Shown in pieces: positions 3,350 to 7,833 of a DNA stretch of 64,000 nt. This DNA comes from Promethearchaeota archaeon (GTDB taxonomy: Archaea; Asgardarchaeota; Lokiarchaeia; Sigyniarchaeales; SOKP01). The stretch lies in the NCBI GenBank assembly GCA_030603385.1, contig JAUVXW010000018.1, positions 1 through 64,000 on the forward strand. The letters run 5' to 3'. Every line of letters starts with the position of its first letter. Position 1 is the first letter of the stretch. The position numbers and the translations under genes were made by a program. The notes under the pieces were generated by a model. That model saw nothing but the letters and a program-made list of their open reading frames with translations. It was not told where the DNA came from and ran no database searches.

Positions 3350-3892
3350 TTGGTGTTTAAAATCGAACAGAAGCTTGCTTTTAAGATCTGTGTTTTTGGA
3401 GATGGCGGAGTAGGTAAAACCACTTTGATCAGGAGATTTTCTACAGGAGTCTTCGAGGAAGATCTTAAGATGACAATAGGTGCTGACTTTAGTGTTAAAA
3501 ATGTAGAAGTAGATGGGAAGCCAGTAACACTACGGATATGGGATTTTGCAGGAGAAGACCGTTTTAGAGTTCTTTTACCAGCTTTTGCTAAAGGAGCTGA
3601 TGGAGGTATCTTTATGTATGATACAACCCGATTTTCTAGCCTTGGCCAAATTAAAGACTGGTTATCTATTTTCGAATATTTTGTATCTGATGAAAAAGTT
3701 AAAATCCCGATTATCATGGTAGGTGCTAAGATAGACCTTGAAGATAAGAGATCAGTAACTTCTGAGGAAGCATTAGAATTATCAGATACTTATGAATTAA
3801 TAGGTCATTTTGAATGTTCTTCCAAAACTGGAGATACTGTAGAGCAAATTTTCGAATTTATCGCCAAAAAAATGGTAGAGAAAAATCGCTAA
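3350..3892 (+). CDS. Rab/Ras-like small GTPase
   Basis: G1 GDGGVGKT, G2 TIGADF, G3 WDFAGE, G4 GAKID, G5 SSKTG. Confidence 0.92.
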   Translation: MVFKIEQKLAFKICVFGDGGVGKTTLIRRFSTGVFEEDLKMTIGADFSVKNVEVDGKPVTLRIWDFAGEDRFRVLLPAFAKGADGGIFMYDTTRFSSLGQIKDWLSIFEYFVSDEKVKIPIIMVGAKIDLEDKRSVTSEEALELSDTYELIGHFECSSKTGDTVEQIFEFIAKKMVEKNR

Positions 3893-4002: not shown

Positions 4003-5946
4003 ATGATTAAAGATGTTCGTTTTACTAAAAGTGAAGGAAAAGTTTTAATGCTCGGAAATGAGGCTCTTGTGAGAGGATGCCTTGAAGCTGGCGTTTCCTA
4101 TGTCTCTCAATATCCAGGTACTCCTACTAGTGATATCGGAGAATATTTCCATCAGGTAATTAGAGATTATCCTGAATTTGGAGAATATTTAGTACACCAT
4201 TGGGCTGTTAACGAAGCAGTTGCATCCTCGGCTTGTGCTGGAGCGGCTTGGACGGGTTGTAGGAGTTTTAATCCCATGAAACATGTCGGTCTGAATGTTG
4301 CAAGTGATGCCCTAAGTGTGATAGCATTAAATGGACCGAACCCTGGGGGAATGGTAATTTCTGTTGGTTCTGACCCAGGTTCATTAGGCTCACACCAAGA
4401 ACAGAATGAACGGTTTTATGCATGGATGCTTCACCTTCCCACCATTGAACCCCATACACCTCAAGAATGTAAGGATTGGGTTAAATTAGCTTTTGAACTC
4501 TCAGAAAAATTTGACTTGGTTATGAATGTTCGTACTTCAACCAGAAGTGCTCATTCAAGAGGTTTTGTAGAACTAGGAACACTTGTAAAAGGTAAGAAAA
4601 GTGGAGAATTTATTAGAAATATCCCCAAATACAATTCGTTACCCCCACATGCTATTAATAATCACATCCGCTTATACGAAAGAATTGAAAAACTCCGAGA
4701 AATTATTCCAGAATTAGGATTAAATAAAATTATTCCAGGAGATAACAGAGTAGGTATTATAACAAGTGGAATGCCTTTTGGTTATACTATGGAGGCACTC
4801 AATCAATTAGAATTAAATGATGTCCCAATATTAAAACTTGGAATGGTTTACCCATTAAATTATGACCAAATAACTAATTATTTGCAAAATCTTGAGAAAG
4901 TAGTTATAATTGAAGAATTAGAACCATTTCTGGAAGTGAAAATTGCTGAGATTGCTCATAATCAGAGAATAGATGTTGAAATTTTAGGACAAAATTATTT
5001 TCCTAAGTATAACGAATTTTCTACTGGATTAGTAGCAACCTGTTTAGCCAAGATATTTAATAAACAACCAAATGAACAAATGATGAAAGCAATGGATTAT
5101 TACAATTCATATAAAGAGATAATTCCTAGTAGATTTCCTACATTTTGCGCAGGTTGCCCTGAACGAGCGACACTCTATTCCATATTGAAAGCAACAAATC
5201 ATTTAGAAAATACCATAATTTCTGGTGATATCGGGTGTTATGTGATGTCATTTTTCCCACCTCAGCAGTGCTCTGACTTAGTCATATGTATGTCGGGGGG
5301 AATAAGTGCAGCAATCGGAATGTCTACAAAAACAGATCAAAAAGTTTTAGCCATGATCGGAGATTCCACATTCTTCCACACGGGTATGGCGCCCTTAGCG
5401 GAAGCTGTAGGATATAACTCAAATTTATTACTCATTATATTTGAGAACTCATGGACAGCTATGACAGGACATCAAGATGATGTACTCCGTTATCTAATCA
5501 ATCAAGGATTTTCCATTGAAAAAGTATGCAAAGCTTTTGGTGTACCTTGGTTAAGGGTGGAAGATTCATATAACCCTAAAAAATTAACAAAAAGTATTGA
5601 AGAAGCTCTAGAAACTAAAGGATTGAAAGTAATTATAATAAAACGAGAATGTGCTTTACAAGCTCATCGATGGAGAACGTCACAAATTAAAACTCTTCAA
5701 GAAAATGACGAAAAAGTTCAGGATATCTCTTATTATATTGGAGGCTGCTCAATGTGCTATGAATGCGTGCGAATATTGAGTTGTCCTGCAATTAGAAGAG
5801 TTGAAACTGAAGGAATTGAAGAAATGCAAATAGATCAAGATAGGTGTATAAAATGTGGTGTTTGTTATGAAATATGTCCAAATGGGGCAATAAGAAAGTC
5901 AATTATAAATTTATTTGGCGAGGAGGTGCCATTTCGTGAAATTTAA
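4003..5946 (+). CDS. iorA: Indolepyruvate:ferredoxin oxidoreductase alpha subunit
   Basis: LGNEALVRG, YPGTPTS, MKHVGLNVASD, CAGCPER, GDIGCY, GDSTFFH, TAMTGHQ, C-terminal ferredoxin motifs. Confidence 0.95.
   Translation: MIKDVRFTKSEGKVLMLGNEALVRGCLEAGVSYVSQYPGTPTSDIGEYFHQVIRDYPEFGEYLVHHWAVNEAVASSACAGAAWTGCRSFNPMKHVGLNVASDALSVIALNGPNPGGMVISVGSDPGSLGSHQEQNERFYAWMLHLPTIEPHTPQECKDWVKLAFELSEKFDLVMNVRTSTRSAHSRGFVELGTLVKGKKSGEFIRNIPKYNSLPPHAINNHIRLYERIEKLREIIPELGLNKIIPGDNRVGIITSGMPFGYTMEALNQLELNDVPILKLGMVYPLNYDQITNYLQNLEKVVIIEELEPFLEVKIAEIAHNQRIDVEILGQNYFPKYNEFSTGLVATCLAKIFNKQPNEQMMKAMDYYNSYKEIIPSRFPTFCAGCPERATLYSILKATNHLENTIISGDIGCYVMSFFPPQQCSDLVICMSGGISAAIGMSTKTDQKVLAMIGDSTFFHTGMAPLAEAVGYNSNLLLIIFENSWTAMTGHQDDVLRYLINQGFSIEKVCKAFGVPWLRVEDSYNPKKLTKSIEEALETKGLKVIIIKRECALQAHRWRTSQIKTLQENDEKVQDISYYIGGCSMCYECVRILSCPAIRRVETEGIEEMQIDQDRCIKCGVCYEICPNGAIRKSIINLFGEEVPFREI
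5921..5928 (+). promoter_or_regulatory. Shine-Dalgarno-like site for iorB
   Basis: AGGAGGTG 7 nt upstream of GTG 5936. Confidence 0.7.
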
Positions 5947-6626
5947 AGAAACAGATATTATAAATATAGTTATAGCTGGAACCGCAGGTCAAGGAGTTAT
6001 CACACTTAAAAGATTAATTGAATTTGCGGCTCAGAAAGCAGATATTGAGCGAGTCTTTGGAAGCGAATCTTATATCTCATTTCAAGTATAAGCGTTTCAT
6101 GCACGGACTTGCTCAACGAGAAGGAGCTATTATGAGTCATACACGTTATCAAAAAAAGCTCGATGGAGATGAGAGAAAAAATATACAAAGTTCTCTTATA
6201 TGCTATGGAGATGCTGATTTGTACATTTGTTTAGAACCAGTAGAAGCTTTAAGACGCGGATTATTTGCTTCTTCTAAAACTTCGTTTGTGATTAATGAAC
6301 GTGATATTCCAAGTGTAATGGTTACAGCTGATCTAGAACAATATCCTCCCATAGAGGAAATTAGAAATATATTAAATAGATGTTCTAAACAAGTTTATTC
6401 CATTAACGCAACAACCTTATCTTTAAAACACTTTCAACAAAATCAATATGTTAATATAATGATGTTAGGTTTTGCAATGATCACTGGGAAATTACCTTTT
6501 ATAGAGATAGAAGACTTTGAAGAAGTTATTAAGGAATGGTTACGAGAACCTGACTCAAACATTAAAGCCCTACATTTAGGGATAGAAAAAGGAAAAGAAA
6601 TCATTTCATTCTCAAACGTTAACTAA
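5936..6626 (+). CDS. iorB: Indolepyruvate:ferredoxin oxidoreductase beta subunit, interrupted: join(5936..6067,6099..6626), 219 aa after removing 31 nt
   Basis: Segment 1 MKFKETDIINIVIAGTAGQGVITL...VFGSE; segment 2 MHGLAQREGAIMSHTRY...ADLYICLEPVEALR...NIMMLG; joined motif SE-M-HGLAQR matches the IorB consensus SE-x-HGMAQRGG. Confidence 0.9.
6068..6098 (+). other. Putative 31-nt bulge-helix-bulge mRNA intron in iorB
   Basis: Bulge AA^U 6066-6068, 4-bp helix AGCG 6062-6065/CGUU 6093-6096, bulge UC^A 6097-6099, intron stem 6069-6075/6086-6092, exon-exon stem 6045-6056/6105-6116. Confidence 0.85.
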
Positions 6627-6696
6627 ATCTCCAAATTTACTTAGTTTAATGCGATTTTTAATAAACTAATTAAAGAGGGGGTGGTTATGTTTTTAC

Positions 6697-7833
6697 ATGG
6701 ACATTCATAAGAAAATTGACTTAATTAAGCGAGGCACTGAAGAAATATTAACAGAAGAAAATCTACAACATCTTTTAGAAACAGGAGTTCCACTAAATCT
6801 TTATATAGGCTTTGAGATATCTGGTAAAGTTCATCTAGGAACTGGACTAATTTGTATGGCAAAAATTAAAGATTTTATTGATGCTGGAATTTCTTGTTCC
6901 ATTTTTTTAGCAGATTGGCATAGCTGGATTAATGACAAATTAGGAGGAGATATGGATAAAATTCGAGAAGTTGCTATAGGGTATTTTAAAGAAGGACTTA
7001 AAGCAGGGTTACTTTGCGTAGGGGCTGACCCAAACAAGGTAAAATTTACCCTTGGTACAGAATTATATCATAATAATGATGATTATTGGGAAACCGTTAT
7101 TGATGTCTGTAAAAACACTACTTTAAGCCGAATGCAGAGAAGTATCACAATTATGGGAAGAAAACAAGGAGATAATGTGGATTTTGCAAAATTACTATAT
7201 CCTGCCATGCAAGTTGCTGATATATTCATTCAAAATATCAATTTTGCTCATGCAGGTTATGATCAAAGAAAAGCTCATGTAATTACTAGGGATGTTGCTT
7301 TAAAAATGAAGAAGAATAACCTTGTTGATACTGAAGGTGAAAAAATTAAACCTGTTTGTGTTCATAATCATTTGATTTTGGGCTTACAAAAGCCACCAAT
7401 CTGGCCTCTTAAAGATGATGAGCAATTACGAGAGCTATGGTCTCAAATGAAAATGAGTAAATCGGTACCCAATTCTGCTGTATTTATTCATGATAATCCT
7501 GACGAAATAAAAGAAAAAATAGGATCCGCTTTTTGCCCTGAGGGAAATGCAGTATTTAATCCAATACTTGATTGGACGAAATCAATAATTTTCAGAGAAA
7601 AAGACTCTTATTTTCAAGTAAAAAGACCAGTAAAATTCGGTGGAGATATGGAGTTTTATTCATATCAAGAATTGGAAGATGCTTATCTAAATAAAAAGAT
7701 TCACCCTCTTGACTTAAAAAATAGCGTTTCAAATAAAATTATAGATATATTAGAACCCGCAAGAGAACACTTTGAAAAAGCTAGAGTAAAAAAAATGAGA
7801 AATCATATGGAAGAATTAATAGTTACTCGCTGA
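6697..7833 (+). CDS. tyrS: Tyrosyl-tRNA synthetase (archaeal type)
   Basis: YIGFEISGKVHLG, LLYPAMQVADI, HAGYDQRKAH, KMSKS. Confidence 0.96.
   Translation: MDIHKKIDLIKRGTEEILTEENLQHLLETGVPLNLYIGFEISGKVHLGTGLICMAKIKDFIDAGISCSIFLADWHSWINDKLGGDMDKIREVAIGYFKEGLKAGLLCVGADPNKVKFTLGTELYHNNDDYWETVIDVCKNTTLSRMQRSITIMGRKQGDNVDFAKLLYPAMQVADIFIQNINFAHAGYDQRKAHVITRDVALKMKKNNLVDTEGEKIKPVCVHNHLILGLQKPPIWPLKDDEQLRELWSQMKMSKSVPNSAVFIHDNPDEIKEKIGSAFCPEGNAVFNPILDWTKSIIFREKDSYFQVKRPVKFGGDMEFYSYQELEDAYLNKKIHPLDLKNSVSNKIIDILEPAREHFEKARVKKMRNHMEELIVTR

What the first reader, a model, noticed from the sequence alone, without database searches (positions are those of the whole stretch)
6045..6116. Bulge-helix-bulge intron inside the protein-coding gene iorB: candidate tRNA-endonuclease-type mRNA splicing in an Asgard-like archaeon
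Seen in sequence: iorB starts at GTG 5936 behind a good SD and reads ...ERVFGSE. It is then interrupted by 31 nt (TCTTATATCTCATTTCAAGTATAAGCGTTTC, 6068-6098) carrying an in-frame TAA and a frameshift, and resumes with ATG CAC GGA CTT GCT CAA CGA (MHGLAQR). Removing exactly these 31 nt rebuilds the IorB motif SE-x-HG(M/L)AQR with no gap. The RNA folds as a BHB: exon-exon stem UUGAGCGAGUCU/GGACUUGCUCAA (6045-6056/6105-6116, 12 consecutive pairs, extended inward with two mismatches), 4-bp central helix AGCG/CGUU, 3-nt bulges AAU (6066-6068) and UCA (6097-6099), and 7-bp intron stem CUUAUAU/GUAUAAG with a 10-nt loop. Established: the archaeal splicing endonuclease EndA cuts after the second base of each 3-nt bulge and RtcB ligates. 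Those cuts (6067^6068 and 6098^6099) coincide with the boundaries derived independently from protein homology. Archaeal mRNA introns of this type are best known from crenarchaeal cbf5. Inference: this lineage splices mRNA of a metabolic gene, IOR activity would depend on splicing, and other apparent pseudogenes in such genomes may be intron-containing genes.
Basis: partly seen in the sequence, partly recalled or inferred. Interest (0 to 1): 0.97.

Follow-up and report, generated by a model that had tools for sequence, protein, structure and literature searches.

The report
tRNA-type mini-intron splitting Asgard iorB
A 31-base insert that breaks a metabolic enzyme gene (iorB) of a Loki-type Asgard archaeon has the shape, cut sites and evolutionary conservation of an intron removed by the tRNA-splicing enzymes. 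The papers I could search report this kind of mRNA splicing for only one other archaeal gene, and direct RNA proof is still missing here.

Summary
Observation confirmed. iorB (GTG 5936) is interrupted by 31 nt (6068-6098) carrying an in-frame TAA and a frameshift. Removing exactly these bases restores ...FGSE|MHGLAQREGA.

The insert is neither an artefact nor gene decay. Of 166 orthologous loci from independent MAGs and metagenomes, 52 carry a 30-, 31- or (once) 32-nt insert at the same codon boundary. The other 114, including all outgroups, have none. Intron-bearing genes are otherwise intact, with dN/dS 0.04-0.2 at dS above 1.

Anchored on the homology-defined borders, a 4-bp helix ends exactly 2 nt before each border. 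That is the BHB ruler: two 3-nt bulges, each cut after its second base. This helix, the intron hairpin and a long exon-exon helix show compensatory changes (91% paired, 8 pairs changed on both sides, 0 of 500 shuffles as high).

The genome encodes an (alpha-beta)2-type EndA and RtcB.

Best reading (about 0.85): an EndA/RtcB-spliced mRNA mini-intron.

In the papers searched, only crenarchaeal cbf5 is a precedent. This scan has already reported the same iorB intron in other genomes, and similar mini-introns in other genes of this genome. I re-verified one in a mutase small subunit and saw others in histone genes.

The parts
4003..5946 (+). iorA (647 aa), intact upstream partner; its stop overlaps the iorB start by 11 nt
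   Evidence: ORF. TPP_enzyme_C, POR_N and Fer4 domains. NCBIfam IOR_alpha E 1e-164, though below the curated cut-off.
5922..5926 (+). Shine-Dalgarno-like GGAGG, 9 nt upstream of the GTG start
   Evidence: Read directly.
5936..6067 (+). iorB exon 1 (44 codons, ...ERVFGSE)
   Evidence: It is 84-95% identical in protein to the N-termini of 17 genus orthologues.
6045..6061 (+). 5' strand of the exon-exon outer helix: 6045-6056 is 12 bp, then 6058-6059 and 6061 pair, with mismatches at 6057 and 6060
   Evidence: The U-A to C-G compensatory change at alignment columns 17/70 is seen in 11 of 34 sequences.
6062..6065 (+). Central helix H, exon strand (AGCG)
   Evidence: The Ser-codon wobble base (C or U) covaries with the intron partner (G or A): UA 21, CG 10-11.
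6066..6068 (+). 5' bulge AAU; predicted cut 6067^6068
   Evidence: The border from protein homology coincides with the position after the 2nd bulge base. The cleavage rule is taken from PMC2738675.
6068..6098 (+). 31-nt intron, with an in-frame TAA at 6089-6091
   Evidence: The sequence is unique in the genome at up to 5 substitutions.
6069..6092 (+). Intron hairpin h': 7-bp stem (6069-6075 with 6086-6092) and 10-nt loop
   Evidence: The basal pairs switch among CG, UA and AU.
6093..6096 (+). Central helix H, intron strand (CGUU)
6097..6099 (+). 3' bulge UCA; predicted cut 6098^6099
6099..6626 (+). iorB exon 2 (175 codons plus stop, MHGLAQREGA...)
   Evidence: Public gene callers annotate this piece alone as a 171-176 aa protein.
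6100..6116 (+). 3' strand of the exon-exon outer helix

Best explanation
The 31 nt at 6068-6098 are a bulge-helix-bulge (BHB) intron in the iorB pre-mRNA. In the transcript, the end of exon 1 (AGCG) pairs with the 3' end of the intron (CGUU) to form the 4-bp central helix. This helix is flanked by the 3-nt bulges AAU and UCA, stacked on an intron hairpin on one side and clamped by a long exon 1-exon 2 helix on the other. The organism's heterotetramer-type splicing endonuclease (EndA alpha plus beta) cuts after the second base of each bulge (6067^6068 and 6098^6099). RtcB then joins the exons, giving ...GGA AGC GAA|AUG CAC GGA... and a full-length 219-aa IorB, and the intron is released, possibly as a circle. 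Shown here: the structure, its exact register relative to the homology-defined borders, its conservation and covariation, purifying selection on both exons, and the presence of the enzymes. Inferred: the cleavage and ligation themselves, and any regulatory role.
For: (1) Recurrence. 7 of 18 genus orthologues and 52 of 166 loci overall carry a 30-, 31- or 32-nt insert at the identical E|M codon boundary. These come from many independent assemblies, including the LAZR01 Loki's Castle metagenome, and comprise 33 different intron sequences.
(2) The genes are alive. All spliced CDS are open. Pairwise dN/dS among intron-bearers is 0.04-0.20 with dS of 0.8 to above 3, the same as for intronless pairs.
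(3) Only excision fits both length classes. The in-frame 30-nt inserts all carry stop codons, and the 31-nt inserts shift the frame.
(4) Covariation anchored on the borders. 91.2% of 875 cells are paired, 8 pairs have changes on both sides (62 cells), no shuffle of 500 is as high, and structures slid by 1-3 columns pair in only 17-46% of cells (the 7-sequence version is). The synonymous AGC/AGU wobble in exon 1 switches together with G/A in the intron.
(5) Exon-exon complementarity tracks intron presence. Intron-bearers have 12-16 of 16 pairs (mean duplex -19.8 kcal/mol), intronless orthologues 5-14 of 16 (-10.5). Intronless orthologues show no significant fold, with z from -0.8 to +0.9, against z -3.9 here.
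(6) Enzymes. A catalytic EndA alpha (Y-H-K present, 198 aa) and a beta subunit (200 aa) are encoded separately, and RtcB is present. PMC5829648 reports the (alpha-beta)2 type with the L1 loop, which it links to broad substrate specificity, for Asgard.
(7) Geometry control. tRNA introns of this genome fit the same bulge polarity and not its mirror image.
(8) One variant (L057) has ATT instead of ATG at the first exon-2 codon, so exon 2 cannot depend on that ATG as a start.
(9) A second, canonical hBHBh' 28-nt insert restores the B12-binding motif of a mutase small subunit elsewhere in the genome.
Against: In this genome the MFE fold prefers a 6-bp central helix, whose bulges would predict a 33-nt excision that does not restore the frame. 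In the canonical register the 3' bulge is closed on the exon side by only one A-U pair followed by a G.G mismatch, so the motif is relaxed rather than strict. The central helix has only 2-3 standard pairs in about one sixth of the variants. BHB-like geometry combined with ORF fusion is no commoner genome-wide than a mirror-image decoy, so the motif alone is weak evidence. ATG is kept at the exon-2 start in 35 of 36 variants, which is also what a re-initiation model would predict.
Confidence: 0.85

Rival explanations
1. Split gene without ligation. Exon 1 and exon 2 are made as two polypeptides, either by termination in the insert and re-initiation at ATG 6099, or after EndA cleavage that leaves a leaderless exon-2 mRNA beginning exactly at AUG. 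The two pieces then assemble non-covalently.
For: Exon 2 starts with ATG in 35 of 36 variants. Every gene caller already reports exon 2 alone. Both exons are under purifying selection, which a two-piece protein would also explain.
Against: There is no Shine-Dalgarno-like sequence in any insert, and the distance from stop to ATG varies from 7 to 27 nt. Variant L057 has ATT. Met at this position is ancestral, being present in all intronless outgroups. This model does not predict a helix that ends exactly 2 nt before both borders, nor the covariation of the exon wobble base with the intron. A cleaved exon-1 RNA would lack a stop codon. The break lies inside the most conserved motif of the domain.
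Confidence: 0.07
2. The structured element is removed or bypassed by some route other than EndA/RtcB, such as another endonuclease/ligase pair, ribosomal frameshifting, bypassing, or stop-codon readthrough.
For: In this genome the +1 frame is open from 6018 through the insert, so a +1 shift before 6089 would produce a fused protein with about 10 extra residues.
Against: The 30-nt variants are in frame and carry one or two stops, some directly after GAA. The 31-nt variants need a frameshift. There are no matched take-off and landing codons. No single recoding rule fits all variants. No Rfam family matches, and 31 nt is far too short for a group I or II intron. The geometry is specifically that of EndA substrates.
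Confidence: 0.05
3. Dead gene or neutral insertion relic (pseudogene), or an assembly or sequencing artefact.
For: Read on its own, the locus looks like a frameshifted gene with a premature stop.
Against: The same insertion site appears in 52 loci from many laboratories and assemblers. Sequences have diverged to dS above 1 without a single further stop or frameshift, and dN/dS is about 0.1. Compensatory changes maintain the fold. The insert is not a repeat in the genome.
Confidence: 0.02

Closest known systems
BHB intron in the cbf5 (pseudouridine synthase) pre-mRNA of Crenarchaeota (Watanabe 2002; Yoshinari 2006; Yokobori 2009, PMC2738675)
   Same: A short intron inside a coding sequence. The BHB-like motif is often relaxed. 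The predicted cut lies between the 2nd and 3rd bulge residues and matches the exon borders. The host has a hetero-oligomeric EndA. The intron sits in a highly conserved, functionally essential motif. Its distribution among close relatives is patchy, implying gain and loss.
   Different: Different gene (a metabolic iorB-like oxidoreductase subunit rather than an RNA-modification enzyme). Different phylum (Asgard/Promethearchaeota). Phase 0, between codons, whereas cbf5 is split inside the catalytic Asp codon. A very long exon-exon clamp of 12-15 bp. Splicing of cbf5 was shown experimentally, but not here.
Archaeal pre-tRNA and pre-rRNA BHB introns and processing stems (EndA plus RtcB)
   Same: Same motif geometry and the same presumed enzymes. 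tRNA introns of this very genome fit the same register. Asgard tRNA genes are reported as heavily interrupted (bioRxiv 10.64898/2026.10.13.758758).
   Different: The substrate is an mRNA, so the exon halves of the motif must be built from codons. The wobble and amino-acid choices of exon 1 and exon 2 are visibly constrained.
HAC1/XBP1 unconventional cytoplasmic mRNA splicing in eukaryotes (Ire1 endonuclease plus tRNA ligase/RtcB)
   Same: Spliceosome-independent excision of a short, frame-changing intron from an mRNA by a protein endonuclease that recognises RNA structure, followed by ligation by the tRNA ligase (from my own knowledge, and the review PMC13149111).
   Different: A different endonuclease family and recognition motif (twin stem-loops rather than BHB). 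HAC1/XBP1 splicing is a regulated stress switch, and no regulation is shown here.

Membership tests
Archaeal BHB intron (EndA substrate) | [quoted passage not shown] | tested here: met
   AGCG/CGUU with bulges AAU and UCA. The four pairs are standard in 30-34 of 36 variants, with UA/CG covariation. Caveat: the MFE fold of this genome extends the helix to 6 bp, which is possible in only 4 of 36 variants.
Archaeal BHB intron (EndA substrate) | Cleavage after the 2nd bulge residue reproduces the exon borders | tested here: met
   Borders defined independently by protein alignment to intronless orthologues fall at 6067^6068 and 6098^6099. The same holds for both the 30- and 31-nt classes. The rule is from PMC2738675.
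Archaeal BHB intron (EndA substrate) | Inner helix h' stacked on the 5' bulge | tested here: met
   7-bp stem here. The basal pairs are 83-94% paired across variants, with CG/UA/AU switches.
Archaeal BHB intron (EndA substrate) | Outer helix h of at least 2 bp directly closing the 3' bulge (strict hBHBh') | tested here: inconclusive
   Only one A-U pair, then an invariant G.G mismatch, 2 bp, another mismatch, then 12 bp. This is a relaxed motif on the exon side, of the sort reported as substrates of (alpha-beta)2 EndA with the L1 loop (PMC5829648).
Archaeal BHB intron (EndA substrate) | Host encodes the splicing endonuclease and RtcB ligase | tested here: met
   EndA alpha at C44 (99 bits) and beta at C9 (71 bits). 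RtcB at C39 (558 bits).
Archaeal BHB intron (EndA substrate) | Excision and exon ligation observed in RNA | not testable with these tools
No spliced-form sequence near-identical to an intron-bearing locus was found.
cbf5 pre-mRNA intron family of Crenarchaeota | Located in cbf5 at the catalytic Asp codon, in Desulfurococcales or Sulfolobales | tested here: not met
   The gene is iorB-like and the relatives are Promethearchaeota. This is an analogue, not a member.
Self-splicing group I / group II introns | Ribozyme core of hundreds of nt; Rfam model match | tested here: not met
   31 nt; no Rfam match in 5700-6700 apart from one chance hit at E 0.78.
Programmed frameshift / translational bypass | One recoding rule (slippery site, or matched take-off and landing codons) that restores the frame in all carriers | tested here: not met
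   The in-frame 30-nt class has stops, the 31-nt class shifts the frame, and there are no matched codons.
IorB (indolepyruvate:ferredoxin oxidoreductase beta; TIGR03334 / PF01558) | Full-length match above the curated cut-off | tested here: inconclusive
   Pfam POR is above its cut-off (56 vs 27 bits). IOR_beta is the best NCBIfam hit but falls below the equivalog cut-off (83-114 vs 206 bits). Call it an IOR-family beta subunit; the substrate is unproven.

The most novel reading that the evidence does not exclude
iorB is one of a population of 28-31-nt mini-introns, spliced by EndA/RtcB, in protein-coding genes of this Lokiarchaeial lineage. Other likely cases are a mutase small subunit and several histones. 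These introns are repeatedly lost, and possibly gained, between close species. If so, routine and possibly regulatory mRNA splicing by the tRNA-splicing machinery exists in the archaeal group nearest to eukaryotes, and many of its 'truncated' or 'frameshifted' gene calls are mis-annotated intact genes.
Probability: 0.55. Interest if true: 0.9.

Novelty: new member of a known kind. Interest (0 to 1): 0.8.

Why it matters
In the papers I could search, endonuclease-type introns inside archaeal coding sequences are documented only for crenarchaeal cbf5, and a 2025 NAR paper still cites only that case. A second gene, metabolic rather than RNA-related, in Asgard archaea has several consequences.

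- It shows that mRNA splicing by the tRNA machinery is not a one-gene curiosity.
- It gives a tractable substrate: an 82-nt RNA and two small EndA subunits for in vitro tests.
- It supplies a natural series of 33 intron variants with many presence/absence transitions, useful for studying how such introns are gained and precisely lost.
- It exposes a systematic annotation error. Public records list exon 2 alone as a 171-176-aa protein, including in Lokiarchaeum sp. GC14_75.
- It bears on ideas about pre-spliceosomal mRNA processing in the lineage that gave rise to eukaryotes.

Tried and rejected
A protein-database search for a spliced-form product found only exon-2-only gene calls identical to intron-bearing loci. 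The closest full-length proteins were 93% identical intronless relatives.

(b) Genome-wide census. I ran three scans for BHB geometry combined with ORF fusion: a strict one, a relaxed one, and one with a codon-usage filter. The correct geometry gave as many hits as a mirror-image decoy (222 vs 200, 198 vs 200, 1669 vs 1580). iorB ranked first or second, but the census neither supports nor refutes a genome-wide excess. It also missed known relaxed cases such as the histones, and it picked up the mutase intron only in the decoy register.

(c) Mobile-element idea. The 31-mer has no other copy in the genome at up to 5 substitutions.

(d) Rfam: nothing.

(e) Single-origin test. Protein trees are too short to resolve. 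The 24-row IQ-TREE needs at least 2 changes on well-supported branches. A FastTree of 125 unique proteins needs 16 changes. Recombination between alleles cannot be excluded: L057 has an intron identical to this one although its exon 2 is only 74% identical in DNA.

(f) ARAGORN found no tRNA in the window and only 22 in the genome. I used these only as a geometry control.

Full report
**What is in the sequence.**
The window carries an iorA-iorB pair. iorA (4003-5946, 647 aa) has TPP-binding, POR_N and 4Fe-4S domains and is best matched by NCBIfam IOR_alpha. iorB starts at GTG 5936, 9 nt after GGAGG, overlapping the iorA stop. It reads 44 codons to GAA 6065-6067 and then runs into a 31-nt stretch (6068-6098) with a TAA at 6089-6091. 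A 175-codon frame in +1 begins at ATG 6099. Exon 2 matches Pfam POR positions 29-173 of 173 and IOR_beta positions 36-188 of 189. An intronless orthologue matches IOR_beta positions 1-187 in one piece, so exon 1 supplies the missing N-terminal ~35 profile positions. The 82-nt region folds at -26.9 kcal/mol (z = -3.9). One detail differs: the MFE structure here lengthens the central helix to 6 bp and shifts the 3' bulge by 2 nt. The canonical 4-bp register is the alternative.

**Is it real, and is the gene alive?**
Searching exon 2 against 61 relatives and then all 54 genomes of the genus found 18 orthologues (65-73% identical in protein). Seven of them, this genome included, have a 30- or 31-nt insert at exactly the same GAA|ATG boundary, and eleven have none. 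Six orthologues from other families of the order are uninterrupted.

A scan of metagenome contigs and of GTDB species genomes raised the sample to 166 loci. Of these, 52 carry an insert (30, 31, or once 32 nt) and 114 do not. There are 36 distinct sequence contexts and 33 distinct intron sequences. They come from many unrelated projects, among them the original Loki's Castle metagenome. Record titles name Promethearchaeota, i.e. Asgard.

After removal of the insert every gene is an open reading frame of about 215-220 codons. Pairwise dN/dS among intron-bearers is 0.04-0.20 with dS mostly above 1, indistinguishable from intronless pairs. An assembly artefact or a decaying pseudogene is therefore excluded. 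The insert has coexisted with a selected, full-length coding sequence through long divergence.

**Why excision from the RNA, and why EndA.**
(i) The 30-nt class is in frame, yet every member carries one or two stop codons, some immediately after GAA. The 31-nt class shifts the frame. Only precise removal serves both.

(ii) I anchored the analysis on the borders given by protein homology, with no alignment of the introns needed. The four exon-1 bases at -6 to -3 pair with the four intron bases at -6 to -3 from the 3' border in 30-34 of 36 variants. The intron bases from +2 pair with those from -7 inward. Exon 1 from -7 pairs with exon 2 from +2. That is exactly a BHB: a 4-bp helix, two 3-nt bulges, and each border after the second bulge base. 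This is the cleavage rule stated for cbf5 (PMC2738675).

(iii) On a 34-sequence alignment, 91.2% of cells are paired. Eight pairs show changes on both sides (62 cells). No shuffle of 500 reaches the observed covariation. Structures slid by 1-3 columns pair in only 17-46% of cells.
- The synonymous third base of the Ser codon in exon 1 (AGC/AGU) changes together with its intron partner (G/A): 21 U-A and 10-11 C-G, against 3-4 non-pairs.
- In the exon-exon helix a Val/Ala codon change (U to C) is matched by a synonymous GGA to GGG change (11 C-G against 18 U-A).

(iv) Exon-exon complementarity goes with the intron. Intron-bearers have 12-16 of 16 pairs (mean duplex -19.8 kcal/mol) and intronless orthologues 5-14 (-10.5). 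Intronless junction regions have no significant fold.

(v) The genome encodes two separate EndA-family proteins. One is a catalytic alpha with the Tyr-His-Lys residues, matching the C-terminal repeat of fused EndAs. The other is a beta lacking the His, matching the N-terminal repeat. RtcB is also present. The (alpha-beta)2 architecture with the L1 loop is reported for Asgard archaea, and that paper links the loop to broad, relaxed-BHB specificity (PMC5829648).

(vi) As a polarity control, tRNA introns that ARAGORN finds in this genome fit the same register (4-bp helix with a 5-7-bp outer stem) and not its mirror image.

**Weak points.**
- Nothing here shows the RNA being cut and joined.
- The motif is relaxed on the exon side: the 3' bulge is closed by one A-U pair followed by an invariant G.G mismatch.
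- In about one sixth of the variants the central helix has only 2-3 standard pairs.
- In this genome the MFE register would misplace the 3' cut. That register is available in only 4 of 36 variants, so it is unlikely to be the selected one.
- A motif-first census of the genome gave no excess over a mirror-image decoy, so BHB-like shapes that fuse open frames arise readily by chance in this 31% G+C genome. The case rests on comparative data, not on the shape alone.

**Rivals.**
- A two-polypeptide model fits the near-universal ATG at the start of exon 2. In that model exon 2 is translated by re-initiation at ATG 6099, or from a leaderless exon-2 RNA left by EndA cleavage without ligation. It does not explain the ruler-like register or the covariation, and the inserts hold no ribosome-binding site. 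Met is the ancestral residue at this position in the intronless outgroups. One variant has ATT.
- Recoding is ruled out by the two length classes.
- A mobile element is ruled out by uniqueness in the genome.
- Ribozyme introns are ruled out by size and by Rfam.

**Evolution.**
On a tree of 125 unique proteins, intron presence needs 16 changes, with several well-supported intron-bearing/intronless sister groups. All outgroups lack the intron. The introns share loop and stem motifs, so one gain near the base of the genus followed by many precise losses is the simplest reading, as was proposed for cbf5. Allele exchange is a live alternative. Locus L057 has an intron identical to this one although its exon 2 is only 74% identical in DNA.

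**Context in the same genome.**
Prompted by earlier notes of this scan, I checked other genes myself.
- A mutase small-subunit gene on contig C26 has a 28-nt insert (94206-94233). Its MFE fold is a textbook hBHBh' (GGCU/GGCU, bulges UGA and UAA), and its removal restores the motif GLDGHDRGAKV.
- Histone genes on C36 and C6 carry 30-nt, stop-containing hairpin inserts at positions where intact paralogues are continuous.
- The same iorB intron has already been reported by this scan in other genomes, with the same conclusion.

**Comparison with the known.**
It works like the crenarchaeal cbf5 intron and like tRNA introns. It is not a member of the cbf5 intron family, since the gene, phylum and phase all differ. 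None of the papers returned by five full-text searches reports a BHB intron in an Asgard coding sequence, and recent EndA literature cites only cbf5. I therefore class it as a new member of a known kind, with high interest because of the lineage, the metabolic target, the evidence that it is not alone in the genome, and the annotation consequences. Public records list exon 2 alone as a 171-176-aa protein.

Noticed in passing
G000 contig C26:94158-94300 (+), outside the window: A B12-binding mutase small-subunit gene is broken after KPGLDG by a 28-nt insert (94206-94233). Its MFE fold is a canonical hBHBh' (helix GGCU/GGCU, bulges UGA and UAA, 9-bp inner stem). Removal restores GLDGHDRGAKV.
   Followed up: partly
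G000 contigs C36:121025-121204 (+) and C6:1150-1300 (+), outside the window: Histone-fold genes carry 30-nt, in-frame, stop-containing hairpin inserts: two in the C36 gene and one in the C6 gene. Intact paralogues (C45, C4, C10) are continuous at these positions. The motifs look like relaxed BHB.
   Followed up: partly
L057 (Ga0114930_10001837), locus positions 540-1125: Its iorB intron is 31/31 identical to the window's and the flanks are nearly identical. Exon 2 is only 74% identical in DNA overall, though the last 75 nt are 71/75 identical. This suggests mosaicism or allele exchange. Its first exon-2 codon is ATT, not ATG.
   Followed up: partly
L117 (Ga0209536_100590852), locus positions 539-625: This is the single 32-nt variant. 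The extra base falls in the 3' bulge/central-helix region and spoils two central pairs. It could be a 4-nt bulge, a sequencing error in a 1.4-kb contig, or a dead copy.
   Followed up: no
Whole genome G000; window 1-64000: ARAGORN finds no tRNA gene in the 64-kb window and only 22 in the 3.9-Mb genome (94% complete), 9 of them with introns. Many tRNA genes are probably too interrupted to be recognised, in line with a 2026 preprint on Asgard tRNA introns.
   Followed up: no
Public protein records P0004, P0118, P0019, P0061, P0082: Gene callers annotate intron-bearing iorB as an exon-2-only protein of 171-176 aa, for example 'IorB [Candidatus Lokiarchaeum sp. GC14_75]'. This is a systematic truncation error.
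   Followed up: partly
P0071 and P0072 (220 aa) compared with L068: These full-length, uninterrupted IorB proteins are 93% identical to the spliced product of an intron-bearing locus. They are the closest intron-present/intron-absent pair seen, which points to recent loss or gain.
   Followed up: no
window 3350-3892 (+): A small Ras/Arf-like GTPase ORF (GDGGVGKTT... motif) lies upstream of iorA, a gene type typical of Asgard genomes.
   Followed up: no
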